64,000 nucleotides of DNA. Origin: Clostridiaceae bacterium. Lineage in GTDB: Bacteria > Bacillota > Clostridia > DUPQ01. Under the pieces are notes generated by a model that was not told the DNA's origin, did not search any database, and saw nothing but the letters and a program-made list of their open reading frames with translations. The first letter of the stretch is position 1; each line of letters starts with the position of its first letter. A program made the translations under genes and the position numbers. Location: NCBI GenBank assembly GCA_012838235.1, contig DUPQ01000070.1:13454-77453 (forward strand), in the 5' to 3' direction. Positions 6,626 to 21,260 of this stretch are shown here, piece after piece.

Positions 6626-7219
6626 ATGAATGAAAGATTTATACCCACAATAATAACGAATATTAACGGTGTTGAACAGATAACCGATTCAGTCAATATT
6701 GACTTTATGAGAAGAAGAATATATTTGGTCGGTGAAATAGACAGTACATCCTCTACAGCGATGCTGTCAATGCTCGGATATTTATCAAACAAGTCAAGTG
6801 ATGATATAGAATTATTCATAAACAGCCCCGGAGGAGCTATACAGGACGGTCTTGCCATATATGACACAATCAAATACGGGGTTAATTGTGATGTTGTAAC
6901 AGTTGCGTACGGAAGAGCCGCAAGTATGGGAGCTTTTCTTTTGGCTTGCGGGAAATCAGGGAAGCGCTATGCTTTACCCAATGCCGAAATAATGATTCAT
7001 CAACCTTTGGGTAGGGTTCAAGGGCAGGCAACGGATATAATATTGGCTGCTGATAATATTAAAAAGACCAAAGAACATATCGCATCTATTTTTGCCGGAA
7101 AGTGTAATAAGCCGGTAGATATACTGCTCAAAGATATGGAGAGAGATTATGTTATGACAAGTAAGGAAGCATTGTCATACGGATTGATTGACAATATAGG
7201 GTTTCCTAAATCGGTATAG
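6626..7219 (+). CDS. clpP: ClpP-family serine protease (paralogue, first gene of the operon)
   Basis: 197 aa. IYLVGEID...FINSPGGAIQDGLAIYDTI...GRAASMGAFLLACG (Ser), EIMIHQPLG (His), ERDYVMTSKEALSYGLID (Asp). GGAAAGGA RBS present. Confidence 0.9.
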   Translation: MNERFIPTIITNINGVEQITDSVNIDFMRRRIYLVGEIDSTSSTAMLSMLGYLSNKSSDDIELFINSPGGAIQDGLAIYDTIKYGVNCDVVTVAYGRAASMGAFLLACGKSGKRYALPNAEIMIHQPLGRVQGQATDIILAADNIKKTKEHIASIFAGKCNKPVDILLKDMERDYVMTSKEALSYGLIDNIGFPKSV

Positions 7220-7235
7220 AGAGGGGGTGAAAAAA

Positions 7236-7985
7236 ATGAGGGAGACATTGCTCTACGGCCATGAAGAAATAAAGAAAGCAATAAATGAAATATGCGTGAA
7301 CAGCAAAGCATATAGTATCGGAAGAGTCCGACCGAGCAACTATATTATCCATCTTGATAGGGGTAACGGTCGTACAACTCTTGCAAGATATATTACCGAG
7401 AAGTTTTATAAACACAGTATTATAAAGTTTAGTAGCAAAGACTTGTTTTTGGAAATTGATTTTGACGGTACTTTGAAACAGCTTCAAGAGTCTTTTGGTT
7501 ATATCAGTTTAGCAGCTTGTTATGCAAATAGTTATGAAGGGGTTCTGTTTTTTGGTATTGATTCATTAGGAGATTATATACATGAAACTCAAGTGGAATT
7601 ATTTTTGGATAATATTGCAAAAGTCAGTGAAACAGCAACATTGATTTTTTATGTTCCCGAGAATCCGTCTAGAAGCATCAGTCAACTGATAGATAAGATT
7701 CGTGATGTATTGAAAGACACTGTTCTAATAGAAAAAAGCGTATACACTGCAACTGAATTGACCTTAATAGTTGAGTCGATGCTAGAAAAGAGGGGAATTG
7801 AAATTGATCAAAAAGCTCAATTTCATGAACAATTAGTTAATCTGATTGCACATATGGAACTTAAAACAATTGATGATGTAAAAGAATTATCAAAAAGAAT
7901 AATACTCTTAACGGATTATAGCTCATTAATATCGAGAGTTGGCAGTTCTCAGTTGAGAAAAATGAGACATGATGTTTTGTCTTGA
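7236..7985 (+). CDS. Degenerate SpoVK/CbxX/EccA-like AAA+ domain protein (probable pseudo-ATPase)
   Basis: The track ORF starts at GTG 7227. ATG 7236 follows GAGGGGG by 8 nt. HLDRGNGRTTLARYI resembles the Walker A GNPGTGKTTVAR but has Lys replaced by Arg. GVLFFGIDSL sits where Walker B GVLFIDEA would be, so the DE is lost. Confidence 0.65.
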   Translation: MRETLLYGHEEIKKAINEICVNSKAYSIGRVRPSNYIIHLDRGNGRTTLARYITEKFYKHSIIKFSSKDLFLEIDFDGTLKQLQESFGYISLAACYANSYEGVLFFGIDSLGDYIHETQVELFLDNIAKVSETATLIFYVPENPSRSISQLIDKIRDVLKDTVLIEKSVYTATELTLIVESMLEKRGIEIDQKAQFHEQLVNLIAHMELKTIDDVKELSKRIILLTDYSSLISRVGSSQLRKMRHDVLS

Positions 7986-8003
7986 TGTTTGGAGGAAAAT
8001 AAG

Positions 8004-9863
8004 ATGATGAACCGCTATTCAAATGAGTACGAGATAGAAAGGAGTACAAGCCGGTTGGATAAAGAATCCTCTACCTGTGGTCCTGTTGTATATTATAACG
8101 GTAAGCCATATGTATATGATGGAGAAAGCCATGTTCTCTATATCGGTAAAAGTGGTAAGGGTAAAAGTAGATGCGGAACAATCTCTACAGTGCTATCAGT
8201 GCAGCAAGCCGGTGAATCCTACATTGTATCCGATCCTAAAGGGGAGATATACAATGCAACTTATTGTTTTCTGAAAGATAAATATATTGTTCATGTAATT
8301 GATTTCAGAAATATTTTAGAAAGTGAAACTTGGAATCCTTTAGAACTTGCATACAAACTATATTCTACCGGTGATAAGCATAAGATGGAAATAGCCTATG
8401 AATTGATTGTAGAATTGGCATTTTTATTATTTGCGGATTCTGTAGTTGCTGATCCGTTTTGGGCTCAAAGTGCACGTAGCTTATTTATCGGTATTGTCTA
8501 TTTACTTTTCAGTTTTGCTCCTGCTGATCAAATAAATATGAAGTCGGTATATATGCTTGCTGTTTTAGGAGAACAAAGGTTAGGGTCAACAAACTATTTG
8601 CGTCATCTTATTGATTTGTTGCCTAAAGACACAACTGCATCGATGAACCTGAATTCGTATATGGCTGCGCCTAATGAAACAAGAGGAAGTATAAAATGTG
8701 TTTTCTTAGATGGTATGGCAATATTTGCAAGAAGCGAAGGTCTTATTGAAATGTTGAGTTCTGATGGCTTGAACATTGCAGAAATGAATGGTGAAAAACC
8801 GGTTGCAATATATATTATTTTGCCGGATGAATCAATAATCTATGATAGGCTTTGCGGTGTGTTGATTAGTCAGTTAATGAAACACTATATGCGTCTTGCG
8901 CAAGATGAATACAAAGGCAGATTGCCGATACGTATGCATCTGATACTGGAGGAGCTTGCAAGTGTGGGAAGTTCCATATCCGGGTTGCCGGACTTAATGG
9001 CTACATCTCGAAGCAGAAATATTAAAATATATATTGTGCTTCAGTCATTATCTCAGTTGGACGATTTATATGGAAAAAGTAATGCATCTACAATACTTGC
9101 CAATATCGGTATCATCATTGCCTTTAGTACTAACGATTGGAAGACCTTAGAGGAGTTATCACAAAAATGCGGAGATAAGGAAATAGATTTCGGTACAAGA
9201 ATAGTTACAACAAGCCTTATTAAGCCGGAGCAGCTTGCTGGTATGGATGTAAAGCAAGCATTGGTAATGATAGACGGAAGTGTCAAGTATATAACTAAAT
9301 TACCGTTCTATGATGAAATATTTGACTTTAGCGAGTGGAAAGAACCGGCGCAATTAAAACATAAAAAAGAAAATAATCCGAAATACTTTGATATTACTAA
9401 ATATGTTCAAGAGGGTGGTGAAACTGATTTAAGAGTACCGATGATGTTGCAGAATGAAGATATATTCAGAACTTTCAACAAGCCCAAAATTAATGAAGAA
9501 ATTAAACTTCAAGAGTTAATAACGAAGATTGATAAAGCAATTGAGAGATTAGAGGGAACAGAAGAAATAGAGGAAATAGAGGAATTAAAAGAAATAGAGA
9601 AATTAATGGAATTAGATATGCAGGAGATGATAGATGAAGAGGATATTCCTGATAGCTATGATATAATACTCTATCGTTGCAATAGTTGTGAAAATGTTAT
9701 TGCTTTGGTTGTTGCCAAAATACTGGATGTAAGTTACAATGAAGCAGTCAATAAATTAAAAGAAGAGCCTCAGATATTTAAATTTGAAACAAGAATTGAA
9801 GCTGAAAGAGCAAAAGCTGATATACGCAATGTGGGTGGGGATGTTTATAATCTATTCGATTAA
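8004..9863 (+). CDS. Soluble VirD4/TraG-like (type IV coupling protein family) P-loop ATPase with acidic linker and C-terminal ribosomal L7/L12-CTD-like domain
   Basis: Track start is TTG 7989. ATG 8004 follows GGAGGA. Walker A YIGKSGKGKSRCG. SDPKGEIY, DPFWAQSARSLF, LILEELASVG (Walker B region), IVLQSLSQLDDLYG. No N-terminal TM helices. Acidic EEIEEIEELKEIEKLMELDMQEMIDEEDIP linker. C-terminus YDIILYRCNSCENVIALVVAKILDVSYNEAVNKLKEEPQIFKFETRIEAERAKADIRNVGGDV. Confidence 0.8.
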   Translation: MMNRYSNEYEIERSTSRLDKESSTCGPVVYYNGKPYVYDGESHVLYIGKSGKGKSRCGTISTVLSVQQAGESYIVSDPKGEIYNATYCFLKDKYIVHVIDFRNILESETWNPLELAYKLYSTGDKHKMEIAYELIVELAFLLFADSVVADPFWAQSARSLFIGIVYLLFSFAPADQINMKSVYMLAVLGEQRLGSTNYLRHLIDLLPKDTTASMNLNSYMAAPNETRGSIKCVFLDGMAIFARSEGLIEMLSSDGLNIAEMNGEKPVAIYIILPDESIIYDRLCGVLISQLMKHYMRLAQDEYKGRLPIRMHLILEELASVGSSISGLPDLMATSRSRNIKIYIVLQSLSQLDDLYGKSNASTILANIGIIIAFSTNDWKTLEELSQKCGDKEIDFGTRIVTTSLIKPEQLAGMDVKQALVMIDGSVKYITKLPFYDEIFDFSEWKEPAQLKHKKENNPKYFDITKYVQEGGETDLRVPMMLQNEDIFRTFNKPKINEEIKLQELITKIDKAIERLEGTEEIEEIEELKEIEKLMELDMQEMIDEEDIPDSYDIILYRCNSCENVIALVVAKILDVSYNEAVNKLKEEPQIFKFETRIEAERAKADIRNVGGDVYNLFD

Positions 9864-9901: not shown

Positions 9902-11215
9902 ATGAGTGGCTTTACTATTGGAGAATATGAATTAGCTAGAAGGGAGAAAGAGTGGTTAAGACTGATAGAGGAAGAAAACCGCAAAAGATTAAAAGAGGCT
10001 ACCGACAGATACAGGTCATGTTTGGCTAATGTTAAATCGGTTAAACACAGAATATCTGCTCATATGGTGGAACAGGAGAAAACACTGGAAGCATATTCTT
10101 ATATGAAGCAACCGTTTGACGAGCTTAAAAGTATAAAAAAGAAATATTGCGAGAAAATTGAACGACTTTGTACTGGCAATATCCCTTCCGAGGTTGTTGA
10201 GATAAACGAGTTATCTGACAAGTTGGAGGAGGATATAGGGGTAATAAGTGCGGAGTTTTTCAAAAAAACGGAAAAAGTGGAAAAAGCAATCAGAGAATAT
10301 ATGAGAATACATGCGGACAATATAGCTACTAAGCAAGTATCAGTTGAATTGGACAGGTTTTCAAAGAGAATTAAAGAAGCTGTCAGAGTGGATTATGCCG
10401 ACTTTATTGAACCTTCTTCAAATAAGACGGAGGAGGATTTGGTAAGCAAGTTTGCTGCTGTATTGCAATTAGCGGAAGAGTGCTTCAATATTTCACATAT
10501 GGATTCCGTCAAATCCAATGTAATTAACATCGTAACAACTCTGAACTCCGTTTCCGATAAGACTTATGATGAAAAAAAGGTTGTGTTGGATCAAATTTAC
10601 AGTAAATTAGTTTCGATCAAGAAGGAGGCAATAGCAAAGAGTAAAAGGTTTGATGCACTGTACACTCAATACCTGGCGGAATGTATTTTAGCTGGCAGTA
10701 AGCCGATGGTTGATTACAGTTTTACATCACTCGAAGCTTTGTCTGACGAGCTTAAATCGGTTAAGAAGAGAGCGGAAGAAAAAGCGGAACACAAATATAT
10801 AACCGAACAGATAAATGATGTTATGCGTAGTATGGGCTACAAATCCATAGACAGTCAGCTTCTTGAGTTACCCAAGGTCGGAACAAGACAGTTGTTCAGA
10901 ATAAAGGAAAATGTTGCACTGAATGTATATGCTTCCGAGAACAACGAAGTGAATACACAGCTTATTATTATCGGGGACAGTAAGAATATAACCGAAGAAG
11001 ATTACGAACAGTTTGAAGAAGAACAAAGAAGCTTCTGCAAGCGCAATCCGGAGTTAGTAAGAAGATTATCGGAAAGAGGTATTTTGATTAAGAACGGGAA
11101 GATAAAAGAGCAAGACAAAAATGATTTGGTTAAAGAAAAAATAGTGACCGATGCGAAGAGTGAAAATAGAAAAAGTAGAAAGAGAAAAATGGAAATAAGG
11201 ATGGAGAGGGAATAA
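9902..11215 (+). CDS. Coiled-coil protein, unknown function
   Basis: 437 aa, AAGGAGGG RBS. Charged heptad-like sequence over most of its length, Lys/Arg-rich tail. No family recognised. Confidence 0.7.
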   Translation: MSGFTIGEYELARREKEWLRLIEEENRKRLKEATDRYRSCLANVKSVKHRISAHMVEQEKTLEAYSYMKQPFDELKSIKKKYCEKIERLCTGNIPSEVVEINELSDKLEEDIGVISAEFFKKTEKVEKAIREYMRIHADNIATKQVSVELDRFSKRIKEAVRVDYADFIEPSSNKTEEDLVSKFAAVLQLAEECFNISHMDSVKSNVINIVTTLNSVSDKTYDEKKVVLDQIYSKLVSIKKEAIAKSKRFDALYTQYLAECILAGSKPMVDYSFTSLEALSDELKSVKKRAEEKAEHKYITEQINDVMRSMGYKSIDSQLLELPKVGTRQLFRIKENVALNVYASENNEVNTQLIIIGDSKNITEEDYEQFEEEQRSFCKRNPELVRRLSERGILIKNGKIKEQDKNDLVKEKIVTDAKSENRKSRKRKMEIRMERE

Positions 11216-11797
11216 ATGAAAGCATGTGATATATGCGGTGCGTCAAATGATGATAATTCAAGGATATGTAATGTTTGTGGTGGAAGGTTTGCAGAAAAAT
11301 CTGTTTCTTATGTTTACTATGTAAGGTGTAACACATGCAATGCCGATATTTTAGTGCAGAATGAAAAACAGGATAAGGTTTTCTGCAAAACCTGTGATAA
11401 AGAACTTGTGATAGACGGAATAGTACATTCGGTATCCAGGAGAGAAACGATTGCAGAAGAAGAACTATATGTAGAACCTACATTGATTTTGGAAGAGGTA
11501 AAATCCAAGCATAAATTCATCATCCCCAAAGAAGGCGGAGTATTTGGCAGATACGGACAATTTGATCCACACTTTTTTCAAGATGAACGTTTTTCCAGGG
11601 TATCAAGGCGTCATATTGTAATAAGTTATGACAGTGACAGTAATAAATGGTCGGTAAAACCCAACAGTGAGACCAATGACACATATATAGACGGAAGGAC
11701 ATTTAAACCGTCAATGAACAGTATTGCCGTTGAAATCAGAGATGGTCAGATGATAGGGCTTGCCGACATATATTTTAAAGTTATAATAAACGGGTAG
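11216..11797 (+). CDS. Double zinc-ribbon plus FHA domain protein
   Basis: 193 aa. CDIC...CNVC and CNTC...CKTC pairs. FHA signature FGRYGQ (GR), SRRHIVI (SxxH), NDTYIDG, and a C-terminal beta-strand region. The start abuts the upstream stop. Confidence 0.85.
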   Translation: MKACDICGASNDDNSRICNVCGGRFAEKSVSYVYYVRCNTCNADILVQNEKQDKVFCKTCDKELVIDGIVHSVSRRETIAEEELYVEPTLILEEVKSKHKFIIPKEGGVFGRYGQFDPHFFQDERFSRVSRRHIVISYDSDSNKWSVKPNSETNDTYIDGRTFKPSMNSIAVEIRDGQMIGLADIYFKVIING

Positions 11798-11802
11798 TAC
11801 AG

Positions 11803-12384
11803 ATGAATGTTGACAGAATCGCTTTTCCAATCAAATCACTCGGACCGGGTAACCGGATAGCAATTTGGACTGCAGGATGTAAAAAGCATTGCTATAATTG
11901 CATAACGCCAGAATTGTGGGAGCCCGATCCGATGAAAGAAATATCCGTACAAAGCCTTGTGCATATTATCACAACTGTTGTTTCCGATAATGGTATTACT
12001 GTTGACGGTATTACCATAACGGGAGGAGACCCTTTTGAACAGCTGGAGGACCTGTTGAACTTACTTCCTTATGTAAAAAATATGGTAAAAGACATTTTGG
12101 TTTATACAGGTTATGAGTACTCGCAATTTAAGAAAACTCTTAGCGAGTGGAAAATAGAATGCATAGAAAGTAATATTTCAGTTTTAATTGATGGGCAATA
12201 TGTAGATAAATTGAACGATAACAAAAGTGCATTGATAGGCTCAACCAATCAGAATATTATATTTTTTGACGAGAAACTTAAATCTAAATATTCGGAATAT
12301 ATGGAAAAAGGCAGAAGCATAGAGAATATAATACACGGGAAAAAGGTTTTTTCTGTAGGTATACATAATAGAGAGGAGAAATAA
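11803..12384 (+). CDS. NrdG-like radical-SAM activating enzyme (4Fe-4S CX3CX2C)
   Basis: 193 aa. The N-terminus MNVDRIAFPIKSLGPGNRIAIWTAGCKKHCYNCITPELW matches the NrdG/PflA-type activase pattern (SxxDGPGxR..F..GCxxxCxxCxN). GGDPFEQ SAM-binding motif. Confidence 0.8.
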   Translation: MNVDRIAFPIKSLGPGNRIAIWTAGCKKHCYNCITPELWEPDPMKEISVQSLVHIITTVVSDNGITVDGITITGGDPFEQLEDLLNLLPYVKNMVKDILVYTGYEYSQFKKTLSEWKIECIESNISVLIDGQYVDKLNDNKSALIGSTNQNIIFFDEKLKSKYSEYMEKGRSIENIIHGKKVFSVGIHNREEK

Positions 12385-12385
12385 A

Positions 12386-14251
12386 TTGGATAATCAATCA
12401 GTAAAGCCCAAATGGCAAAAGGAGATAGAGCTTTTCAGAGGTATAAAAAGTGCATATATAATTGAAGGCAATATAAATGACAACTATCCTATCTGCGAAG
12501 AGGGAGGTAGTGTATATTTTGCTAACCTTGATAAGACAATAATAAAGTTGTTTGATAAGGATGTATATGATTTCTGTTTCTGTAATCCTGCGGTAGGGTT
12601 ATATGATCCTCTTAACAGAAGTTTACAAAAAGAAACCGTTGAAGCATTGATAGGCAAGTTTAATAATAATGAATTATGTTCCCGTTATGATGATATATTC
12701 GGTCATGTTTATATGATTAGAGAAATAGGTTTACTTGCCGATATTATTAAAAAAGCATTGGTAGGAACAACAAACAATAACGAAGGAGAAAGAAAACCCG
12801 TTGCAGTCGTAGTAAATTTCGCATCAAAGTTTTTTTCGGACGTATCCAATATAAATAATGACGAGATGAAGGCATTGTTGAACATATTATTAGCTTCATT
12901 GAATTCCAGATATTACCGGAACAATGTCAATACATTGATACTGGTTGTGGAGAAATTCAATGACCTTCCCACATGGTTCTACTACAATAATCCCAAGGTA
13001 AAGACCGTTACTATACCCAATCCCGACAGGTTGGTCAGAACTGTGTATATCGAGAAAGAGTTCACCGAGTTTAACAGTATAGAAAAGGCGAAGGATGTAA
13101 TTGATAAGCTTGTAAGCGCCACGGAAGGATTAAAACTGATTGAGCTTAGAGAATTAAGACAACTTCACATGAAGAATAATGATGACATATCCAATATTAA
13201 TGAAACGGTGTCTGCATATAAATATGGTATTAAGGATAATTTATGGCAAAGTTTCAATAAAGGAACAATAGAGAGACTGGAAAGATATCTTAAAGAAAGA
13301 ATAATCGGTCAGGACTATGCATTGAATAAAGCAATAACGATAATAAAGCGCGCGGTGATGGGAATGACAGGTTTGCAACATTCATCTGCAGATAATAAAC
13401 CTCGCGGTGTACTGTTCTTAGCCGGTCCTACCGGTACCGGAAAAACGGAGCTGGCAAAAGCTATAACTGTAATCCTTTTCGGTGATGAGAGAAACTGTAT
13501 AAGATTTGACATGGCTGAATTCAGTGAACCACATTCGGATCAGAAACTAATCGGTGCACCTCCTGGTTATGTTGGTTATGAAGCGGGAGGGCAGCTGACT
13601 AACGAAGTGAGAAAAAGACCATATGCAACGGTACTATTTGATGAAATGGATAAAGCATGTCCGACAATTATGGATAAATTCTTAGAAATACTGGAAGATG
13701 GCAGGTTGACAGACGGACAAGGCAATACGGTATATTTCTCAGGGACACTGATAATTTTTACCAGTAACTACGGATATACGGAAATGAGAATTGATGAAAA
13801 CGGTAACGAGAAAAGAGAATGGATTATTAAACCCGGCGAGTTACCCTATGAAGAGGTAAGGAAAAAAGTGGTTGATTCTATTAAAAAATCCAAAGCGATG
13901 AAACCGGAAATAATAAACAGGATAGGGGAACACAACATAATTGTATTTGATTTTATCAGCAAAGAGGCCGCAGAAAAGATAATTAAAAAACAGATAAAAC
14001 AAGTGAACGAAGACTGCAAGAAGCAAAAGGGAATCTCAATGCATGTTTTAGATGAATGCTATGAGTTATTAAATAAGAAATCTCGGTCCGATGATGTGAT
14101 GATTTATGGAGGCAGGGGTATAGGAACATTGGTAGAAAATGAATACATCAACCCTCTTTCCAATTATTTGTTTGATAATGATTTTACCCATGAAGTAAAA
14201 ATAACTGCATTTGTAAAAGGGGATAAACTGGACTTCAGAGAGGAGGTATAG
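12386..14251 (+). CDS. Clp/Hsp100-family AAA+ ATPase (ClpB/ClpV-like D2) with degenerate N-terminal D1-like half
   Basis: 621 aa, TTG start 7 nt after GAGAGGAG. D2: IIGQDYALNKAI...GVLFLAGPTGTGKTELAKA...LIGAPPGYVGYEAGGQLTNEVRKRPYATVLFDEMDKA...LEDGRLTDGQGNTVYFSGTLIIFTSN...YGGRGIGTLVE (sensor 2). The N-terminal half has IIEGNINDNY at the Walker A position and VVVNFASKF at the Walker B position. Confidence 0.85.
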   Translation: MDNQSVKPKWQKEIELFRGIKSAYIIEGNINDNYPICEEGGSVYFANLDKTIIKLFDKDVYDFCFCNPAVGLYDPLNRSLQKETVEALIGKFNNNELCSRYDDIFGHVYMIREIGLLADIIKKALVGTTNNNEGERKPVAVVVNFASKFFSDVSNINNDEMKALLNILLASLNSRYYRNNVNTLILVVEKFNDLPTWFYYNNPKVKTVTIPNPDRLVRTVYIEKEFTEFNSIEKAKDVIDKLVSATEGLKLIELRELRQLHMKNNDDISNINETVSAYKYGIKDNLWQSFNKGTIERLERYLKERIIGQDYALNKAITIIKRAVMGMTGLQHSSADNKPRGVLFLAGPTGTGKTELAKAITVILFGDERNCIRFDMAEFSEPHSDQKLIGAPPGYVGYEAGGQLTNEVRKRPYATVLFDEMDKACPTIMDKFLEILEDGRLTDGQGNTVYFSGTLIIFTSNYGYTEMRIDENGNEKREWIIKPGELPYEEVRKKVVDSIKKSKAMKPEIINRIGEHNIIVFDFISKEAAEKIIKKQIKQVNEDCKKQKGISMHVLDECYELLNKKSRSDDVMIYGGRGIGTLVENEYINPLSNYLFDNDFTHEVKITAFVKGDKLDFREEV

Positions 14252-14255
14252 TCAA

Positions 14256-14975
14256 GTGTTACATGTTGTTGCTATTACCGATAAAGGTCCGAGTAATGAG
14301 AAAAATGACGACTGTATATTAGTTAATAATACTGTTATAACCGAAGGATCGTTTTATGGAGAATACCGTTCCTACCTGCTTGCATCGGTTTTTGACGGTG
14401 TCGGAGGCGAGCATTACGGAGACGAGGCGGCTAAAATTGCAGCGACAGGTTTTTCAACACTTGATGTTAAAGACAGATTAAGTGAACATGTTATAGTTGA
14501 TAGGATAAAGGCGGTGAATAGGGATATTCTTGATGCACAGAGGACCGATGTTTATCACAGCAAAATGGCAACTACAATAGCAGGGGTTTATATAAGTAAT
14601 GACAGCTTCATAGCCTTTAATGTCGGTGACAGTCGGGTGTATCGCTTAAGAGGCGAGTATATGTTGCAGATATCGAAAGATCATAGATATTCGGAAAAAG
14701 TTCACACAATATACCGATACTTAGGACACCCTACCGATTACCTACCGTATACTGATATGTTTGATAACTTGTTTTTTGACAATGACATTCTTGTTATTTG
14801 TACTGATGGTATCAGCGACTTTGTTTACAACAGTGTAATCAAGCGGGAACTTATGAAAGTTGAAGACAATTATTCTTTGACGGAATGTGCAGAGGAAATA
14901 ATGAATACTGCAATTAAGGAAGGGTGTAACGATAATTTAAGTATCATATTAATAAGGAAGTGCGAAAATGACTGA
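14256..14975 (+). CDS. PP2C-family Ser/Thr phosphatase
   Basis: 239 aa, GTG start after GAGGAGG. VFDGVGGEHYGDEAA, NVGDSRVY, CTDGISD, NDNLSIILI. Confidence 0.85.
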   Translation: MLHVVAITDKGPSNEKNDDCILVNNTVITEGSFYGEYRSYLLASVFDGVGGEHYGDEAAKIAATGFSTLDVKDRLSEHVIVDRIKAVNRDILDAQRTDVYHSKMATTIAGVYISNDSFIAFNVGDSRVYRLRGEYMLQISKDHRYSEKVHTIYRYLGHPTDYLPYTDMFDNLFFDNDILVICTDGISDFVYNSVIKRELMKVEDNYSLTECAEEIMNTAIKEGCNDNLSIILIRKCEND

Positions 14976-17139
14976 TTTAGAAGTGTCTAACTGTACTAAA
15001 AAAACAAGTAGTTTAATAAATACATTAAGTTATAACGGGCCGTCTACTCCGTTAATGACCGATGTGGAATTCAAGGGAAGAAACGGAAACACCTATAAGG
15101 TCTTGTCAGACGGGTTTATTCATCAAGGCGGAGAATCTGTTTTATACAAATGTATTTGTAATAATGAGGTTTATGTTGCAAAAATACTAAATTTTTCTGT
15201 TAGCTTGAGAAATGATGAACTAAGAGGACCTGTTTTAGATTTTTTAATAAGACATTCCGGTAAAGACTCACACCTCTTGCAACTACTTGATTACGGGACA
15301 ATCAGATATAATGACGGCAGATATGATGCGCTGAGATATATTGAAATATATCCGTTCTGCCCTAAAGGTGATTTGGGAAGATTAGGGAAAATTGATTATG
15401 ATACTTTGTGTGAAAAAGTTATACCTGCTATCAACACCGCTCTTAATACTTTGCACAATGCAAATCTGGTTCATAGAGATGTAAAACCCAATAATGTGTA
15501 TGAACTGGACGGCGAAATATATCTGGGGGATTTCGGACTCTTGACAAGCAGCATCATAGAAGATGGACATAGTAATGCACATGCATACACATTAACACAA
15601 AGAGGAACTGAGGGTTATATGGCTCCAGAAATATATAAAGGTTCTGTTTATAATATTTCCGATTACTATTCGTTCGGCCAGACCATTTCCACTTTATATC
15701 ATGGAAAACATATGTATGAACACCTTATGAATAATACCGACTATATAGCAAACAGAGACATAAATCTTTCTCTTCATCGGTGTATGATGGAGGGAATTTT
15801 ATATTTAAGTTTGGAAACAAAGCACAAGGAACTAGATAAATTACTCAGAGGCTTGTTGAAGTGCAATCATGAGTTAAGGTTCGGTTATGAGCATGTTTGC
15901 AGATGGCTTACCGGAGACAAGACTCTGACCGTACCGGAAGACAGAAACATAGATCAACTGAATCCGCCATTTATGATTAATGATGTCAAATGCAGAAACA
16001 TAGAAAGCATGGTTGAACAGCTATTATTAAACTGGGATATGGCAAAGGAATACTTATACGAGGGGATAATGAAAGACTTCTTCAGTGCTCAGAATACAGA
16101 GTTAAGTATGAAAGCACTGGAAATATCAAGAAAACAGGGAAATGAATTAGTTAATAATACCGGATTAAGTCAATTTATTCATTATTTAACGGAAGGGGAA
16201 GGGATATATTGGAAAGGAAGAAAATATAACGACCATGCGGAAATTTTCAGCGATTATACAGACAATCATAGTATTAATCCCGATGTCATAGAGTTGCTTT
16301 CCTCCGGTTTTTTATCCTGGAGAATGGAAGAACTGAATAAGAAAGATAATAAATATCAAAACCAAATTGAGCTTCTTAAGAGTATTGAAAAAGAATGTTT
16401 TTGCTATAGTTCAATAGGTTATCATTATGCAAGACACAAACTAAGAGGGGAAGAAATAAGTTATTCAGATTGCCAAAATGTTGCTGAATTAATAGATTAT
16501 TTTATTGAATCATTCGGAAAAACATATTTTACTGGAGAAACATGGTTGAGAGATGATAGGTTTTATGGATTTTTAATGGCATTAGGTCATGTTAAAATTG
16601 CAACTTCTTTATTCGAGGAAGTGAGATGGGCGCAACCTGCGAATGCCATAAGAGCATTATTCGGTACTTTAGAAGTTTTGATAGAAAGAGGAAACAGCAC
16701 TTCACTTCAAACTAAAAAAGAACTTTTAAACATCTACTTGTTATATGGTCCGCGGTCCTATCTCTGCTGGATAAAAGAGAATCTTAGTTGTTACGATTTT
16801 ATGGGTATGAACGCTTTTATTTTAAAAGAGAAAATTGAGGACATTAATTTGAGCAATAAAAAAAGTCTTGCAGATATCGATTCAGCATTTAATGAATTGG
16901 CCAAAAATCTTAATCAATTTAAGCTATACTTCTGTGACAATCCTATTCTATGTAAATTAGGGATTAGTAATAAGGAAGGGAATGATATTATTTATTCAAA
17001 AAGCCTTGACGGTTATTTTTTATCCGACTTCTATGGGAATAAAGTACCGGTCGGATTTTATAAGTATATTGATGCATACAGGAGTAAAAAGAAAATAGTT
17101 AAGAATTTAAATAACTCCGAAGACCTGTTTTCCTTCTAA
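14968..17139 (+). CDS. Hanks-type Ser/Thr protein kinase with about 430-aa uncharacterised C-terminal region
   Basis: 723 aa, overlaps the PP2C gene by 8 nt. VYVAKIL (Lys), HRDVKPNNV, LGDFGL, GTEGYMAPE. No motif recognised after about residue 300. Confidence 0.9.
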   Translation: MTDLEVSNCTKKTSSLINTLSYNGPSTPLMTDVEFKGRNGNTYKVLSDGFIHQGGESVLYKCICNNEVYVAKILNFSVSLRNDELRGPVLDFLIRHSGKDSHLLQLLDYGTIRYNDGRYDALRYIEIYPFCPKGDLGRLGKIDYDTLCEKVIPAINTALNTLHNANLVHRDVKPNNVYELDGEIYLGDFGLLTSSIIEDGHSNAHAYTLTQRGTEGYMAPEIYKGSVYNISDYYSFGQTISTLYHGKHMYEHLMNNTDYIANRDINLSLHRCMMEGILYLSLETKHKELDKLLRGLLKCNHELRFGYEHVCRWLTGDKTLTVPEDRNIDQLNPPFMINDVKCRNIESMVEQLLLNWDMAKEYLYEGIMKDFFSAQNTELSMKALEISRKQGNELVNNTGLSQFIHYLTEGEGIYWKGRKYNDHAEIFSDYTDNHSINPDVIELLSSGFLSWRMEELNKKDNKYQNQIELLKSIEKECFCYSSIGYHYARHKLRGEEISYSDCQNVAELIDYFIESFGKTYFTGETWLRDDRFYGFLMALGHVKIATSLFEEVRWAQPANAIRALFGTLEVLIERGNSTSLQTKKELLNIYLLYGPRSYLCWIKENLSCYDFMGMNAFILKEKIEDINLSNKKSLADIDSAFNELAKNLNQFKLYFCDNPILCKLGISNKEGNDIIYSKSLDGYFLSDFYGNKVPVGFYKYIDAYRSKKKIVKNLNNSEDLFSF

Positions 17140-17169: not shown

Positions 17170-18141
17170 ATGTATAAGGATATAAATATGGCAGGAATAA
17201 AAGAATTTGACGACAATATATTACAGGAATTTGAAAAAGATGCTAAAGACATTATTTATAAGCATCTTGTTGAGTTTAAAGACCTTTCAAATAAGCTACG
17301 GGAAGAAAACGGGAAATATATACTAAAAGCAAGGGTTATAATAAGCTTTATATTCTATATACTTCTTTTATCGGTTGTAATTCTATTCGCCTTTTTCATT
17401 CCCAATATTGTATATAACCTTAACCTTGCAGAAGAGTCTTTAATAATTTTCGGTATTGTGGCACTGTACGGTTGCTTTGCATACTTTTCGGTTTTATTGA
17501 TTGAACGAATACTGAAATGCTTGCATTATTACAAAATTTTTCTTCTTACTAATGAAATAGAAAATCTAATTGAAGATATAAAGAAGACTATTGCAGGATT
17601 GCCTGCGATTAGAGAAGATATTATTGCATCAATTAAAAAGAATCAAAGGGTAACAGTAAGTTCAGTCGCACAAAACAAAAATGTTATGTATACGAATATT
17701 AATGATTTTAAAAAAAGAAAAGAACGCTTGATTTACAGCAAGCCGGGATTCCTGGACGGAGCGGAAAAATCACTTTACTGGATAGCTTGTATTACTCTTT
17801 TATCCGTATTGTCCGCAATCGGTCCGAGCATAGGTTTAATGTTTTTCCCTGAGACAGAAGACTATTCTATATTCATTTTAGTTCAGTTTTTAATGAATCA
17901 TGGAGCATTAGTGGCATTGCATATTATTTTACATAAGAAGGGAATCAGAACAAGTTTTAAAACTTTTTTAGGTTCTGTTTTATGTGCCTTGGCAGGTGCA
18001 GGCGGAGCCCTAATACTGTATGTTCTTGTTTTAATGGTGATTGGTCTGTTTAAATTTATATGGAAAATTATTGTATATTTTCTTCTTGGAGTTTTTTTTA
18101 TCGGCGGACTAATCGGCCTTCTTTGTTCCAAGGAAAAGTGA
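17170..18141 (+). CDS. Polytopic membrane protein (2 TM, cytosolic helical linker, about 4 TM)
   Basis: 323 aa. Hydrophobic stretches ARVIISFIFYILLLSVVILFAFFI, LIIFGIVALYGCFAYFSVLLI, WIACITLLSVLSAIGPSIGLMFF, LCALAGAGGALILYVLVLMVIGLF, IIVYFLLGVFFIGGLIGLL. Confidence 0.7.
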   Translation: MYKDINMAGIKEFDDNILQEFEKDAKDIIYKHLVEFKDLSNKLREENGKYILKARVIISFIFYILLLSVVILFAFFIPNIVYNLNLAEESLIIFGIVALYGCFAYFSVLLIERILKCLHYYKIFLLTNEIENLIEDIKKTIAGLPAIREDIIASIKKNQRVTVSSVAQNKNVMYTNINDFKKRKERLIYSKPGFLDGAEKSLYWIACITLLSVLSAIGPSIGLMFFPETEDYSIFILVQFLMNHGALVALHIILHKKGIRTSFKTFLGSVLCALAGAGGALILYVLVLMVIGLFKFIWKIIVYFLLGVFFIGGLIGLLCSKEK

Positions 18142-18253
18142 TATCTTTCATTGCGGATTTAAACTGTTTATAGATAACATTGTTTTATATATTGGTATTA
18201 AAGAAGGGAAGAAAGCAACAGTTTGTTAAACAGTCGTGAAGGAGGAATATAAT

Positions 18254-19135
18254 ATGTCCCAAATACAGAAAGATGCATTAATATGTTACATAGATGAGGC
18301 ATTACCGCTTATTGATACCGAAATCGATCAGTCTATGAAAATTAAGAAGGATCTTCAAGAATTATGCCGAGGGTTTTCAAAAAACTATAAATTTAATACT
18401 ATACTGGTATCTATTCCGATTTTAGTACTGATTCTGCTGGTAATTACTATGATGATTATTTCGTTGAACATTGTTGTAGGCATTGATAAACTTCTTGGTA
18501 TTCCGAATGACAGTATCTCTATTGTGGTAGATGTTCTGCCGATAATTGCAACTCATGTTTACCTCTTCCTTTTGCTGCTCAGAAGAATAGTAAAAACATC
18601 ATTTGTCATTGAAGCGCAAAATTATATTAATAAAATAGAATATATCATAAGGCTGCTGAACGAAAATACTGAACGGTTAAATGCTCTTAAAAACAGACTC
18701 AACAGCAATTGTGATCATCGTGAAAGAGAGCAAGGTTTTATAAACTATCTTAAGTTACTGGGTTATAGAGAAGGAAGTTATGATGTTAGCCAAAGTCTAT
18801 ATCAGATAAGTACCAGGCATGAAGAAATGAAGAAGAAAATGGAAAAGAGTTACTACGATATACCGATTATTATCTGCTATTTTTTTGCACTATTGTCACT
18901 TCTGCCTGCATCGGCTCATCGTACTTATATGTATTTTTTTAATAGAAATATTATTTATGACTACGATACTTACTATACAGTATTCTTTATCATTGTTTCA
19001 TTTTTATTAATTTTGGCAAATCTGATAATTACAAACAAGGAAATAAAATTGAGTATATGGACTTTTTTGATTTCAGTAGTTTTTTTGTTGGTAATCATAG
19101 CAGTACTGATATTGTATGTAGTTTTTACTCAATAA
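18254..19135 (+). CDS. Polytopic membrane protein, same architecture as the preceding gene
   Basis: The track ORF starts at GTG 18236. ATG 18254 follows AGGAGG. TM stretches ILVSIPILVLILLVITMMIISL, VDVLPIIATHVYLFLLLL, IIICYFFALLSLLPA, VFFIIVSFLLILANLII, IWTFLISVVFLLVIIAVLILYVVF, with a helical linker between the TM pairs. Confidence 0.7.
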   Translation: MSQIQKDALICYIDEALPLIDTEIDQSMKIKKDLQELCRGFSKNYKFNTILVSIPILVLILLVITMMIISLNIVVGIDKLLGIPNDSISIVVDVLPIIATHVYLFLLLLRRIVKTSFVIEAQNYINKIEYIIRLLNENTERLNALKNRLNSNCDHREREQGFINYLKLLGYREGSYDVSQSLYQISTRHEEMKKKMEKSYYDIPIIICYFFALLSLLPASAHRTYMYFFNRNIIYDYDTYYTVFFIIVSFLLILANLIITNKEIKLSIWTFLISVVFLLVIIAVLILYVVFTQ

Positions 19136-19159: not shown

Positions 19160-20215
19160 ATGGATAAAGACTGTGCATATAAAAGGGAAGATAATCTTGT
19201 TTATCTGTATCTGGAGATAGATAACAGAAGATGCACCGAAAAGGAAACAAAGATACTAAAACAGTATGCCGGTGTAAAATATGGAGAAACTATCTCACGG
19301 TATATAGTTATGCCCCAAGACATGCATTTAGAAGCTTTACACTATGCAATTCAAAGATTATTCGGCTGGATAGACCGATATAGGTATGCATTCAAGCTCC
19401 CCGATGACGTGTTCTATTCCATAACAAAGGATAATGTATGCAAGTGGGCTTCGCTAACGGGAGATTTGTTTGCATATATATGGAGTGACAATGAGGCAGG
19501 GTACTTTAATCCTTTATTTCAGGATAATAAAGAAGTGGATATTGAAGAATTTTTTGCACAGCAATACACAGGTCCGTATATTGCCGGTTACAGGTTTTCT
19601 AAAATGCACAGTGTAATAAAAACGGCGGTTCAGATGGAATTGGAAAAACTTTCAGATAATAATGATTCAGTTGCTGCATTTAACATTGAAAATTTAAGTA
19701 CCTTTACATCCGGTGATGTAAAAAAAGATGATTTTTTGAAAGAGAATGCAAATACACTGTTGCCATGCATGTATGTGTCTTCGGTATTGGCTGCAAAAGG
19801 TGAAAAGGTAGGAACCGATCAGGAGATTCCGAAGCACGGTAGATATTATAGAAATATTGAAGATACTGAGGTCTTACCTTTGACACATAAACTCATATAT
19901 ACCTATGGCGGTGAAAGTAAGTGGGTTGTTAATATCGTAAGGTTGAAGAATTTCAGCTCACTTATTGAAGACGGTTTGGTATGTATGAGTCGGGTAAATG
20001 ATGCGGAAAATGCTGTAAAAGAAAAACATAGACCGTTTTGTGTTTTTAAAGACGGTGCAAATGTACTGGATGATGTAGATGATTTACCCGGTTACTGCGA
20101 GTTTCTCCATGATATATTTGAAGGTTGCAATATTGAAAAGATGAAAAAAGCTTTAAAATTCGGGCGCAGAAGAGATTGGCATATTGAAGAAATGAATGAA
20201 CCGATAATATTGTAA
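19160..20215 (+). CDS. MM3350/PRiA4-ORF3-like domain protein (paralogue 1)
   Basis: 351 aa. ISRYIVMPQDMHLEALHYAIQRLFGW matches the family pattern IWRR..VP...TL..LH..IQ...GW. YTYGGESKWVVNIV corresponds to Y.YDFGD.W.H.I. PFCVFKDGANVLDDVDDLPGYCEFL corresponds to P.C..G..A.PPED.GG..GY..FL. Confidence 0.65.
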   Translation: MDKDCAYKREDNLVYLYLEIDNRRCTEKETKILKQYAGVKYGETISRYIVMPQDMHLEALHYAIQRLFGWIDRYRYAFKLPDDVFYSITKDNVCKWASLTGDLFAYIWSDNEAGYFNPLFQDNKEVDIEEFFAQQYTGPYIAGYRFSKMHSVIKTAVQMELEKLSDNNDSVAAFNIENLSTFTSGDVKKDDFLKENANTLLPCMYVSSVLAAKGEKVGTDQEIPKHGRYYRNIEDTEVLPLTHKLIYTYGGESKWVVNIVRLKNFSSLIEDGLVCMSRVNDAENAVKEKHRPFCVFKDGANVLDDVDDLPGYCEFLHDIFEGCNIEKMKKALKFGRRRDWHIEEMNEPIIL

Positions 20216-20252
20216 TTTAAGTGGATAAAATAAATATATAAGGAGTCTTGTT

Positions 20253-21260
20253 ATGTATAACGAATTGAGAATGAAAAAAAGCCGTAATCCTATATATCTT
20301 CATCTGGAACTGGATACAAAATATTGTTCCAATGAAGACTTACATACACTGAAAAAATATGCCTGCATAAAATATGGTTCTACTATATCCAGAGATGTTT
20401 TAGTGCCTCACGATATAACTATCAGAGCATTACATTATACAATTATGAAACTCTTCGGATGGATGGGAAGACATGATTATACTATGAAGCTTCCCAGTCA
20501 AATATATGATAATGTGACCGAAACTGATTCGAATATAATAATCAGTTTGATGGGGGTTTTACTCAAATGTCCCGATGAGGTGAAAATCGATGATGATTTC
20601 CTTGTATCATTTGATGATACTGGTCCAAAAGACTTTGAGAACAGGTTTTCCGAGTATTACACGGGACCATATGCAAATTTTGCAAGTATAGAGGATTACA
20701 GCACATTATCGGGTATACTTACATTGTGTGATTCAATAAAAGATGAAATAATGGGAGTTGATTGTAACAAATTGTTGGGAAGACTTAAGGTGTCCTCCAT
20801 ATTGACATATGAAGGTGATAATATAAGCGGGAATGTTGAATATTTAAAAGGTGACTCAATAAAAGAATACAATATGAGAAGGGAACATTGCAAAGAGTGC
20901 GAAATGCAACCGGATGTTTTGCCTTTGACATATAAGCTGGTTTATTTGTATGACAGCGAAAGAAAATGGACAGTTAATATTACAATGCCTAAGGACTTTT
21001 CAGTATTGATTAATGATAGAGGTGTTTCAAAAGAAGATATAGATTTTGCAAAGAATAAAGTTTTGGACAGTTATAAGCCTTACTGTATTTTCCGTGACGG
21101 AGCAAATGTTATGGAGGATGTAGCCAACCTGCCCGGATTCTGTGATTTCTTAAGAGTTGTTTTTGAGAGAAGCGATACGAATAAAAAGAAAACTGCACTT
21201 AAATATGCCCGTAAAAGAGATTGGTATCCGGATGAAATCGGTGACTGTATAATGTTTTAG
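20253..21260 (+). CDS. MM3350/PRiA4-ORF3-like domain protein (paralogue 2)
   Basis: 335 aa, collinear with the previous protein (ISRDVLVPHDITIRALHYTIMKLFGW; YLYDSERKWTVNIT; PYCIFRDGANVMEDVANLPGFCDFL). Last gene of the operon. Confidence 0.65.
   Translation: MYNELRMKKSRNPIYLHLELDTKYCSNEDLHTLKKYACIKYGSTISRDVLVPHDITIRALHYTIMKLFGWMGRHDYTMKLPSQIYDNVTETDSNIIISLMGVLLKCPDEVKIDDDFLVSFDDTGPKDFENRFSEYYTGPYANFASIEDYSTLSGILTLCDSIKDEIMGVDCNKLLGRLKVSSILTYEGDNISGNVEYLKGDSIKEYNMRREHCKECEMQPDVLPLTYKLVYLYDSERKWTVNITMPKDFSVLINDRGVSKEDIDFAKNKVLDSYKPYCIFRDGANVMEDVANLPGFCDFLRVVFERSDTNKKKTALKYARKRDWYPDEIGDCIMF

What the first reader, a model, noticed from the sequence alone, without database searches (positions are those of the whole stretch)
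11216..17139. Complete phospho-threonine signalling triad (Zn-ribbon-FHA, PP2C, Hanks kinase) embedded in the operon
**All three components look functional**
- The FHA domain retains the pThr-binding residues: GR, SxxH, N.
- The kinase has the VAK Lys, HRD, DFG and APE motifs.
- The PP2C has its metal-binding Asp motifs.

**Layout**
- The kinase and PP2C genes overlap by 8 nt.
- The kinase has no TM segment but carries about 430 residues of unassigned C-terminal sequence that could be the sensor.

**Comparison**
Kinase/phosphatase/FHA triads gate T6SS firing in Pseudomonas, and kinase-phosphatase pairs occur in TerY-P and Stk2-type defence. Here the triad is wired to Clp-type and T4CP-type ATPases, which I have not seen described.
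Basis: partly seen in the sequence, partly recalled or inferred. Interest (0 to 1): 0.6.

Follow-up and report, generated by a model that had tools for sequence, protein, structure and literature searches.

The report
Phospho-switch inside a conserved seven-gene cassette
The kinase, phosphatase and phospho-threonine reader are real and look active, and they are the control part of a seven-gene cassette found in many gut anaerobes that I could not find described anywhere, while the neighbouring ClpP and coupling-protein genes are a separate module that happens to be joined on here.

Summary
Observation confirmed. Window 11216-17139 encodes a double-zinc-ribbon FHA protein, a PP2C phosphatase and a Hanks kinase, with catalytic and pThr-binding residues intact. 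The kinase and PP2C genes overlap by 8 nt.

- The triad belongs to a colinear cassette: coiled-coil protein, ZnR-FHA, NrdG-like radical SAM, ClpB-like AAA+, PP2C, kinase, polytopic membrane protein.
- 37 of 41 metagenome loci with enough flank carry all six soluble genes in the same order.
- The cassette occurs in Clostridia, Muribaculaceae and Fusobacterium.
- The membrane protein always follows the kinase or is fused to it.
- The kinase C-terminal ~400 residues fold confidently into an all-helical domain with no Pfam, PDB or viral match.
- ClpP, the small AAA-like protein and the T4CP occur in none of 80 related loci. They form their own trio elsewhere, without the cassette, so the window operon is a composite.

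Most likely mechanism (inferred): a membrane-associated kinase autophosphorylates its Thr-rich N-terminal tail, the FHA adaptor reads it and engages the AAA+/radical SAM output, and PP2C resets. The output is unknown. No known defence or secretion family fits, and no paper describing it was found.

The parts
9902..11215 (+). Cassette gene 1: 437-aa coiled-coil protein with a small C-terminal globular domain. No known family.
   Evidence: No Pfam, NCBIfam or PDB sequence match. It is the first gene of the cassette in 37 of 41 loci. Invariant M1-S2-G3 and a QxAFCxxHP motif. Its stop codon abuts the FHA start codon.
11216..11797 (+). Cassette gene 2: double zinc-ribbon plus FHA phospho-threonine reader.
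   Evidence: FHA PF00498 E 2.9e-8. GR, SxxH and TN conserved in orthologues. Four CxxC pairs at residues 4-60.
11803..12384 (+). Cassette gene 3: small NrdG-like radical SAM enzyme of the glycyl-radical-activase type.
   Evidence: Fer4_12 E 1.5e-28. TIGR02491 NrdG 1.4e-28, 99.8 bits, below its cut-off of 126. C26-x3-C30-x2-C33 and GGDP 74-77 conserved.
12386..14251 (+). Cassette gene 4: family-specific N-terminal domain of about 290 aa, followed by a ClpB-D2-type AAA+ ATPase.
   Evidence: AAA_2 E 6e-47 and ClpB_D2-small 6e-7. Walker A 347-354, Walker B 417-424 and sensor-1 TSN are intact. The N-domain has no Pfam or PDB match. It defines a family of 373 clusters at 50% identity. No IGF/L loop.
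14256..14975 (+). Cassette gene 5: PP2C Ser/Thr phosphatase.
   Evidence: PP2C_2 E 1.7e-10, Stp1/IreP NF033484 8.8e-32. Metal-binding Asp motifs conserved.
14968..15915 (+). Cassette gene 6, N-terminal part: Thr-rich tail (aa 1-30) and Hanks kinase domain (aa ~31-316).
   Evidence: Pkinase E 3e-21. Motifs. Fold matches to CaMK, PhK and PLK. 35 of 59 relatives carry 3-11 ERIPTMPQ repeats in the tail. The window protein has none.
15919..17139 (+). Cassette gene 6, C-terminal part: conserved all-alpha domain of about 400 aa with an unknown fold.
   Evidence: Conserved over 93% of the query length in about 55 relatives. AlphaFold pLDDT 86.1, pTM 0.81. No Pfam hit, no PDB sequence hit, no PDB fold hit (best E 0.81), no viral fold hit. 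Fused to 3-8 TM segments in relatives.
17170..18141 (+). Cassette gene 7a: polytopic membrane protein (about 6 TM segments).
   Evidence: Hydropathy. In relatives, the gene after the kinase is a membrane protein (5-13 TM segments in most, 2-4 in a few), or the kinase is fused to such a region. Sequence is not conserved (phmmer).
18236..19135 (+). Cassette gene 7b: second polytopic membrane protein with the same layout (about 6 TM segments).
   Evidence: Hydropathy. L084 also has the membrane component split in two.
6626..9863 (+). Separate accessory module joined upstream: ClpP (6626-7219), a 252-aa degenerate AAA-like protein X (7227-7985), and a soluble VirD4-like T4CP (7989-9863).
   Evidence: CLP_protease E 2e-59, T4SS-DNA_transf E 7e-41, CD1115 family 4e-63. 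Absent from 80 cassette loci. The trio is conserved alone in L168-L170. The gap to cassette gene 1 is 38 nt.
19160..21260 (+). Two paralogous PRiA4_ORF3 (MM3350-like) proteins downstream. Specific to this variant.
   Evidence: PF07929 E 8e-11 and 7e-13. Not found in 80 related loci.
3680..6295 (-). Divergently transcribed STAND NTPase with an N-terminal winged-helix (Trans_reg_C) domain. Possible regulator of the operon.
   Evidence: Only weak Pfam hits, all below their cut-offs: AAA_22, NB-ARC, NACHT, Trans_reg_C. L170 also has a divergent NB-ARC protein next to the ClpP / X / T4CP trio, but blastp finds no similarity between the two.

Best explanation
The FHA protein, PP2C and kinase are the phospho-switch of a self-contained, horizontally mobile seven-gene cassette. 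Its order is: coiled-coil protein, ZnR-FHA, NrdG-like radical SAM enzyme, ClpB-like AAA+ ATPase, PP2C, Hanks kinase with a novel helical C-terminal domain, polytopic membrane protein.

Shown:
- All components are present and look catalytically competent.
- Gene order is conserved across three phyla.
- The kinase C-terminal domain is genetically coupled to, and often fused with, the membrane protein.

Inferred:
- The kinase docks on the membrane protein through its C-terminal domain and is switched on by a signal at the membrane.
- It phosphorylates threonines in its own N-terminal tail (the ERIPTMPQ repeats of most relatives) and perhaps other cassette proteins.
- The FHA adaptor binds these phospho-threonines and brings in or releases the output proteins: the AAA+ unfoldase, the radical SAM enzyme and the coiled-coil protein.
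- The PP2C keeps the system off or resets it.
- The biological output is not known. A stress or conflict response (for example abortive infection) in anaerobes is the most likely.
- In this window the cassette has been joined in one operon to an unrelated, independently conserved ClpP / X / T4CP module.
For: - Domains and motifs.
- Translational coupling: the 8-nt overlap and abutting stop and start codons.
- The same colinear cassette occurs around kinase homologues at about 30% identity in L081-L087 and L171.
- Census: 37 of 41 metagenome loci with enough flank have all six soluble genes in order. The 80 loci fall into 49 groups at 85% identity.
- The membrane protein always follows the kinase, or is fused to it (kinases of 1080-1410 aa with 3-8 TM segments).
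- 35 of 59 kinases carry 3-11 Thr-containing ERIPTMPQ repeats in the N-terminal tail.
- The N-domain family is limited to about 373 clusters among 1.84 billion representatives, nearly all of them ClpB-like proteins of 600-700 aa.
- Hosts: Clostridia, Muribaculaceae, Fusobacterium animalis. Neighbours vary between loci.
- Precedents for kinase / PP2C / FHA switches controlling an output: T6SS PpkA-PppA-Fha1 (established knowledge) and the Esr pathway, where a kinase-phosphatase pair acts on an FHA output protein that is often fused to zinc fingers (PMC13622651).
Against: - No experiment exists. No phosphosite, FHA ligand or radical SAM substrate is known.
- The window kinase itself lacks the ERIPTMPQ repeats.
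- The beta3 Lys is Arg in 32 of 54 relatives and the alphaC Glu is not conserved, so the catalytic mechanism may be unusual.
- Defence-island signal is weak. Only sporadic PADLOC hits appear among 129 flanking proteins. Several loci sit among housekeeping genes. None of 2.9 million viral contigs carries the cassette.
- No glycyl-radical target is evident in the cassette.
Confidence: 0.55

Rival explanations
1. First reader's reading. The triad gates a translocation and proteolysis machine built from the T4CP, ClpP and the ClpB-like ATPase, in the way PpkA-PppA-Fha1 gates T6SS firing.
For: - ClpP, X and the T4CP lie on the same strand with 3-38 nt gaps before the cassette.
- L083 has a HerA/FtsK-type ATPase of 1030 aa upstream of its cassette.
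- L169 has a kinase and a PP2C-VTT protein near a ClpP / X / T4CP trio.
- ClpV, Fha, PpkA and PppA co-occur in T6SS clusters (established knowledge).
Against: - ClpP, X and the T4CP are absent from all 80 related loci and from L084-L087 and L171.
- The trio is conserved on its own with other partners.
- The ClpB-like protein has no ClpP-docking IGF/L loop.
- No secretion-apparatus structural genes are present.
Confidence: 0.12
2. The cassette is a housekeeping membrane or envelope stress-signalling and protein-remodelling system rather than a conflict system.
For: - Some copies lie between core genes: pyrBI, a Mur ligase and priA in L086, and biotin genes in L171.
- Few defence genes lie in the flanks.
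- It is absent from viral contigs.
Against: - Patchy spread over three phyla.
- Integrases, IS elements and toxin-antitoxin genes flank many copies.
- The membrane protein and kinase tail diverge fast.
- Natural loss or rearrangement variants exist (L124, L166).
- The gene is split in some strains.
Confidence: 0.2
3. The 'kinase' is a scaffold or pseudokinase in much of the family. The FHA domain then works without phosphorylation by this kinase.
For: - The beta3 Lys is replaced by Arg in 32 of 54 relatives.
- The alphaC Glu is not conserved.
- The G-loop is GGES/SGES with an invariant Glu.
Against: - HRD..K..N, DFG and APE are invariant in 54 of 54 sequences.
- The window protein has the Lys.
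- An active-looking PP2C is retained next to the kinase in 37 of 41 loci, which makes sense only if phosphorylation occurs.
Confidence: 0.1
4. The three genes are unrelated neighbours, that is, a chance juxtaposition of common domains.
For: Hanks kinases, PP2C and FHA proteins are common in Clostridia genomes (general knowledge).
Against: Same order and tight spacing in 37 of 41 loci at 30-45% protein identity. The genes also overlap.
Confidence: 0.02

Closest known systems
T6SS threonine-phosphorylation pathway (PpkA kinase, PppA PP2C, Fha1, with the ClpV AAA+) of Pseudomonas aeruginosa H1-T6SS
   Same: Hanks kinase, PP2C and FHA protein are encoded together with a ClpB-family AAA+. The kinase is linked to the membrane. 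The phosphatase is the presumed off-switch.
   Different: - There are no T6SS structural genes.
- The kinase has a novel cytoplasmic helical domain instead of a periplasmic vWA domain.
- It adds a radical SAM enzyme, a coiled-coil protein and a fast-evolving polytopic membrane protein.
- It is found in Clostridia, Muribaculaceae and Fusobacterium.
Esr threat-sensing pathway of Actinomycetales (PMC13622651)
   Same: A kinase-phosphatase pair controls Thr phosphorylation of an FHA output protein. In many variants that protein is fused to zinc-finger-type domains. Output architectures are variable.
   Different: Esr uses MoxR, vWA and beta-propeller sensor proteins and is linked to Esx secretion. 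None of these is present here. Esr has no AAA+ ClpB-like or radical SAM partner.
TerY-P triad (TerY vWA, PP2C, Ser/Thr kinase) and the Deinococcus vWA-STPK-FHA-PP2C operon (bioRxiv 10.64898/2026.01.23.701218)
   Same: Operon-encoded kinase plus PP2C (plus FHA) signalling modules of the conflict or stress type.
   Different: There is no vWA/TerY protein here, and the partners are different.
Kinase-based phage defences: Stk2, PD-T4-6, MADS Mad6, KKP (PMC11341870)
   Same: Hanks-type kinase catalytic core. PADLOC gives partial matches to mad6, PD-T4-6 and Stk2 models.
   Different: - Matches cover only the catalytic core (residues ~150-313).
- NCBIfam MAD6 scores 49 bits against a cut-off of 460.
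- The other genes of those systems are absent.
- Those systems have no FHA, radical SAM or ClpB-like partners.
Dodola (DolA + ClpB-like DolB) and PDC-M37
   Same: The ClpB-D2-type AAA+ matches DolB (1e-22) and PDC-M37B (7e-29).
   Different: There is no DolA. The match is to the generic AAA+ core only. The N-terminal domain is specific to this family.

Membership tests
Ser/Thr phospho-signalling triad (Hanks kinase + PP2C + FHA) | Kinase catalytic motifs (beta3 Lys, HRD..K..N, DFG, APE) | tested here: met
   K72, H169-R-D171..K173..N176, D188-F-G and A219-P-E. Invariant in the family except K72, which is K or R. Fold match to active kinases.
Ser/Thr phospho-signalling triad (Hanks kinase + PP2C + FHA) | PP2C metal-binding aspartates | tested here: met
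   D18/D19, D47, D184 and D226 are present and conserved. PP2C_2 E 1.7e-10.
Ser/Thr phospho-signalling triad (Hanks kinase + PP2C + FHA) | FHA pThr-binding residues (GR, SxxH, N) | tested here: met
   G111-R112, S130..H133 and N154, conserved in 7 orthologues.
Ser/Thr phospho-signalling triad (Hanks kinase + PP2C + FHA) | Actual phosphotransfer, and FHA binding of a phosphoprotein | not testable with these tools
   Needs a kinase assay, phosphoproteomics and FHA-peptide binding.
T6SS threonine-phosphorylation pathway | Embedded in a T6SS cluster (TssB/C, Hcp, VgrG, TssM and others) | tested here: not met
   No such domains in any operon protein, nor in the related loci listed.
TerY-P triad | TerY-type vWA protein next to the kinase and PP2C | tested here: not met
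   No vWA domain in the operon.
Esr pathway | MoxR AAA+, vWA and beta-propeller sensor proteins | tested here: not met
   None found. The bpMoxR hit of the ClpB-like protein is 21 bits, below its cut-off of 27.
MADS / PD-T4-6 / Stk2 kinase defences | Full-length match to the family model, and the companion genes | tested here: not met
   PADLOC hits cover only residues ~150-313. NCBIfam MAD6 scores 49 bits against a cut-off of 460. No companion genes.
Dodola | DolA (DUF6414) adjacent to DolB | tested here: not met
   Only DolB-like AAA+ similarity, 1e-22. No DolA.
Glycyl-radical enzyme / activase pair | Activase with CxxxCxxC | tested here: met
   C26-x3-C30-x2-C33. The NrdG model scores 99.8 bits, below its cut-off of 126.
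Glycyl-radical enzyme / activase pair | Partner protein with the RVxG[FWY] glycyl-radical motif | tested here: not met
   The only look-alike is 'MRVVGIGF' in some coiled-coil proteins. It is not conserved: the window has 'QLIIIGDS'.
ClpAXP-type protease (ATPase docking on ClpP) | IGF/IGL loop in the AAA+ partner | tested here: not met
   No such tripeptide follows sensor-1 in the ClpB-like protein or its orthologues.
Conjugative type IV coupling protein | VirD4/TraG NTPase core | tested here: met
   PF02534 E 7e-41. CD1115 family 4e-63, 214 bits, below its cut-off of 250.
Conjugative type IV coupling protein | N-terminal membrane anchor, and a neighbouring relaxase or T4SS genes | tested here: not met
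   No hydrophobic N-terminus in the sequence. No relaxase or VirB genes among the window ORFs scanned up to 38.8 kb.

The most novel reading that the evidence does not exclude
The cassette is a new class of membrane-triggered, phosphorylation-gated immune or suicide system of anaerobes. On its activation, the FHA adaptor licenses a ClpB-like unfoldase to feed a protein (possibly the coiled-coil protein with its invariant Met-Ser-Gly N-terminus) to an NrdG-like radical SAM enzyme. This would be radical chemistry on a protein under the control of eukaryote-like Ser/Thr signalling.
Probability: 0.15. Interest if true: 0.85.

Novelty: new variant of a known kind. Interest (0 to 1): 0.62.

Why it matters
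Kinase / PP2C / FHA switches are known regulators of a few bacterial machines, such as T6SS, Esx/Esr and TerY-P. Here the same switch is locked into a cassette whose other parts are an NrdG-like radical SAM enzyme, a ClpB-like unfoldase with a new N-domain, a new coiled-coil protein, a new helical kinase appendage and a fast-evolving membrane protein.

The cassette is widespread in gut, rumen and termite-gut anaerobes of three phyla, yet it appears undescribed. If it works as proposed, it would link Ser/Thr signalling to radical SAM and AAA+ chemistry. It would also define several new protein domains.

A copy in the cultivable species Fusobacterium animalis makes it testable.

The work also shows that the ClpP / X / T4CP trio is a second conserved module, which I did not find described.

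Tried and rejected
- The genome-contig scan with the kinase alignment chose generic kinase motifs and returned only unrelated kinases, so it gave no phyletic census.
- The megablast of the operon against plasmids found nothing.
- The promoter and terminator scan gave counts equal to shuffles. It shows only a plausible promoter before the GrpB-Nudix gene at 21386-21414.
- A glycyl-radical target in the coiled-coil protein ('RVVGIG') is rejected because the motif is not conserved.
- The ClpB-like N-domain as a degenerate AAA+ D1: hhalign against D2 lines up the P-loop region, but at probability 0.3% and E 0.21, which is inconclusive.
- Sequence homology among the membrane proteins: none by phmmer. 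Only the architecture is shared.
- Fold search of the full kinase model returned only kinase domains. The C-terminal domain alone has no PDB or BFVD match.
- Profile searches of the coiled-coil protein, the N-domain and the kinase C-terminal domain against PDB sequences and Pfam gave only coiled-coil noise.
- Defence-island enrichment of the flanks: PADLOC on 129 flank proteins gave only scattered hits, so the defence role stays unproven.
- PADLOC and NCBIfam membership of known kinase or ClpB defences is rejected.

Full report
**1.

The + strand of the window carries a tightly packed run of genes from 6626 to 21260. Inside the reported range there are five genes, not three:
- a double-zinc-ribbon FHA protein (11216-11797)
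- a small NrdG-like radical SAM protein (11803-12384)
- a ClpB-like AAA+ (12386-14251)
- a PP2C (14256-14975)
- a 723-aa Hanks kinase (14968-17139)

Pfam, NCBIfam and PADLOC scans confirm the domain calls.

- FHA: G111-R112, S130-xx-H133, T153-N154.
- PP2C: N17-D-D19, D47-GVGG, GDSR 124-127, TDG 183-185, NDN 225-227.
- Kinase: GGES 54-57, VAK 70-72, HRDVKPNN 169-176, DFG 188-190, APE 219-221.

Other checks also agree:
- The kinase start overlaps the PP2C stop by 8 nt (ATGACTGA), behind an AAGGAAG ribosome-binding site.
- The FHA start abuts the stop of the upstream gene.
- The kinase has no hydrophobic segment.
- About 405 residues after the kinase domain match no Pfam family.

**2. The triad is part of a conserved cassette**

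A search with the whole kinase found about 55 full-length relatives at roughly 30% identity covering 93% of the query. The C-terminal region is therefore a conserved domain, not a disordered tail.

Every relative whose contig I fetched has the same colinear neighbourhood:
- an unannotated coiled-coil protein of ~410-480 aa (starting MSGPK in most relatives)
- ZnR-FHA
- radical SAM
- ClpB-like AAA+
- PP2C
- kinase
- a polytopic membrane protein

I then used the family-specific N-terminal domain of the ClpB-like protein as a probe:
- The metagenome scan returned 460 relatives.
- I annotated the 80 loci kept with local HMMs built from the cassette proteins.
- Of 41 loci with at least 3.2 kb on both sides, 37 carry all six soluble genes in the same order.
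- One locus lacks only the PP2C, one is rearranged, and two distant ones have the AAA+ alone.
- The 80 loci represent 49 groups at 85% identity.
- Against 1.84 billion representative proteins, the N-domain finds 373 clusters, nearly all of them proteins of 600-700 aa.

Carriers include a Clostridia MAG (the window), a Muribaculaceae MAG and Fusobacterium animalis. No viral contig carries the cassette.

**3. The membrane link**

- In relatives where a downstream ORF could be called, the gene after the kinase usually encodes a membrane protein (5-13 predicted TM segments in most, 2-4 in a few). Otherwise the kinase is 1080-1410 aa long and contains 3-8 TM segments itself, or in a few loci is followed by a soluble protein.
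- Such fusions argue that the kinase C-terminal domain works with the membrane protein.
- In the window the membrane component is two ORFs of about 6 TM segments each, at 17170-18141 and 18236-19135. L084 has a similar split.
- These proteins share architecture but no detectable sequence similarity, which means fast divergence.

**4. The kinase appendages**

- AlphaFold with 54 sequences gives a confident model (pLDDT 87.5). Its kinase domain matches CaMK, PhK and PLK structures.
- The C-terminal domain modelled alone (pLDDT 86.1, pTM 0.81) is mainly alpha-helical with a few hairpins.
- That domain has no match in the PDB (best E 0.81, TM below 0.2) or in BFVD. It also has none by sequence profile.
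- The N-terminal tail of 35 of 59 relatives holds 3-11 tandem ERIPTMPQ repeats. The window protein and its subfamily lack them but keep a Thr/Ser-rich tail. These threonines are the obvious candidates for autophosphorylation and FHA docking. This is inference.

The N-lobe is unusual:
- The beta3 residue is Lys in 22 relatives and Arg in 32.
- The alphaC Glu is not conserved.
- R86 is near-invariant and E56 in the glycine loop is invariant.
- The catalytic loop, DFG and APE are invariant.

**5. The other cassette proteins**

- **Radical SAM protein.** It keeps CxxxCxxC and GGDP. It is closest to NrdG, at 99.8 bits against a cut-off of 126. No glycyl-radical partner motif is conserved in any cassette protein.
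- **ClpB-like protein.** It has an intact D2-type ATPase. Its N-domain has no known relatives. A comparison with D2 hints at a degenerate P-loop fold but is not significant. It lacks a ClpP-docking loop.
- **Coiled-coil protein.** It has no known family. It has an invariant Met-Ser-Gly start and a QxAFCxxHP motif.

**6. ClpP and the T4CP are a different module**

- None of the 80 loci, nor L084-L087 or L171, has ClpP, the 252-aa protein X or the T4CP.
- The T4CP has hundreds of relatives of 600-640 aa, many annotated with a C-terminal ribosomal L7/L12-type domain.
- In three contexts examined, the trio ClpP / X / T4CP recurs with the same order and spacing but without the cassette.
- Its neighbours there are M50-like peptidases, transglutaminase-core proteins, JAB plus ThiF, small peptides with three radical SAM/SPASM enzymes, a kinase plus PP2C-VTT pair, a relaxase, and a divergent STAND NTPase.
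- blastp confirms the homology: X at 27-35% identity, T4CP at 41-43%, ClpP at 40-56%.
- The window also has a divergent STAND-like gene (3680-6295, minus strand).

The operon is therefore a composite of two independently conserved modules. The two PRiA4_ORF3 genes (19160-21260) are a further addition specific to this lineage.

**7. What it most likely does**

The conserved logic has four parts:
- a membrane-coupled kinase
- a phosphatase
- a pThr reader fused to zinc ribbons
- energy-dependent and radical enzymes

This is the logic of a switchable response system. I favour this sequence:
1. The kinase is activated at the membrane.
2. It phosphorylates threonines on its tail, and possibly on partner proteins.
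3. The FHA adaptor reads these marks.
4. The AAA+, radical SAM and coiled-coil output is engaged.
5. The PP2C resets the system.

The role is undecided. In favour of a conflict system:
- Patchy spread over three phyla.
- Variable insertion sites, with integrases, IS elements and toxin-antitoxin genes nearby.
- Fast evolution of the membrane protein and the kinase tail.

Against:
- Defence-gene enrichment in the flanks is weak.
- Some copies sit among core genes.

**8. Comparison and novelty**

The nearest known systems are:
- the T6SS PpkA-PppA-Fha1(-ClpV) pathway
- the Esr pathway (PMC13622651)
- TerY-P-type triads
- kinase defences: Stk2, PD-T4-6, MADS and KKP

Each fails a defining membership feature here (see the membership table). 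Five full-text searches combining FHA, radical SAM, PP2C, ClpB, kinase and defence terms found no paper describing this cassette.

I class the finding as a new variant of a known kind. It has a familiar phospho-switch, but its conserved set of partners appears undescribed and several of its domains are new.

Noticed in passing
window 6626-9863; L168 7587-10911; L169 7622-10905; L170 7649-10881: ClpP, a ~250-aa degenerate AAA-like protein (Walker A reads GNGRTT) and a soluble VirD4-like T4CP form an independently conserved trio. Many T4CP relatives carry a C-terminal ribosomal L7/L12-type domain. The neighbours vary: M50-like peptidase, transglutaminase-core protein, JAB plus ThiF, small peptides with rSAM/SPASM enzymes, a divergent STAND NTPase. 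I found no description of it.
   Followed up: partly
window 15175-15183 (kinase VAK); alignment A2: The beta3 'catalytic' lysine is Arg in 32 of 54 family members. The alphaC Glu is not conserved, while a glycine-loop Glu (E56) and R86 are (near-)invariant. The Arg type goes with the ERIPTMPQ-repeat tails (30 of 32).
   Followed up: partly
kinase homologues P0003-P0049 (N-termini); L083 10001-10260, L084 10001-10420: There are 3-11 tandem ERIPTMPQ repeats at the kinase N-terminus in 35 of 59 relatives, absent from the window protein. They are candidate multi-site phospho-docking arrays.
   Followed up: partly
window 9902-9910 and 11024-11050 (coiled-coil protein): There is an invariant Met-Ser-Gly N-terminus and a conserved QxAFCxxHP motif in the first cassette protein. 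Their purpose is unknown.
   Followed up: no
window 1-34000: This part has low GC (0.32-0.41, mostly below 0.38, versus 0.38-0.46 beyond). It is rich in conflict-type genes: a STAND NTPase (3680-6295, minus strand), AAA_21 (27365-28483, minus strand), Fic (32331-33269), HATPase_c_4/HTH (33426-34394), a GrpB-Nudix fusion (21425-22678) and a GNAT (22675-23544). It looks like an acquired island.
   Followed up: partly
window 19160-20215 and 20253-21260: Two paralogous PRiA4_ORF3 (MM3350-like) proteins follow the membrane genes. They are not found in any related cassette locus.
   Followed up: partly
L171 1187-9812 (Fusobacterium animalis GCA_041027465.1): A complete cassette with a kinase-membrane fusion (1110 aa) sits next to biotin-synthesis genes in a cultivable species. 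This is a practical entry point for experiments.
   Followed up: partly
window 9902-11215 (cluster members P0123, P0124): In some MAGs of the same species, the coiled-coil gene is called as two fragments (235 and 169 aa). This is either a frameshift or pseudogene, or an assembly error.
   Followed up: no
window 1260-2474 (minus strand): This is a protein with a fibronectin type III domain and a C39-like peptidase domain, followed by an unannotated 334-aa ORF (2683-3687, minus strand). Both lie next to the STAND gene.
   Followed up: no
L084 15490-19649: A second, unrelated FHA protein followed by two kinases lies 3 kb downstream of the cassette in one related locus.
   Followed up: no
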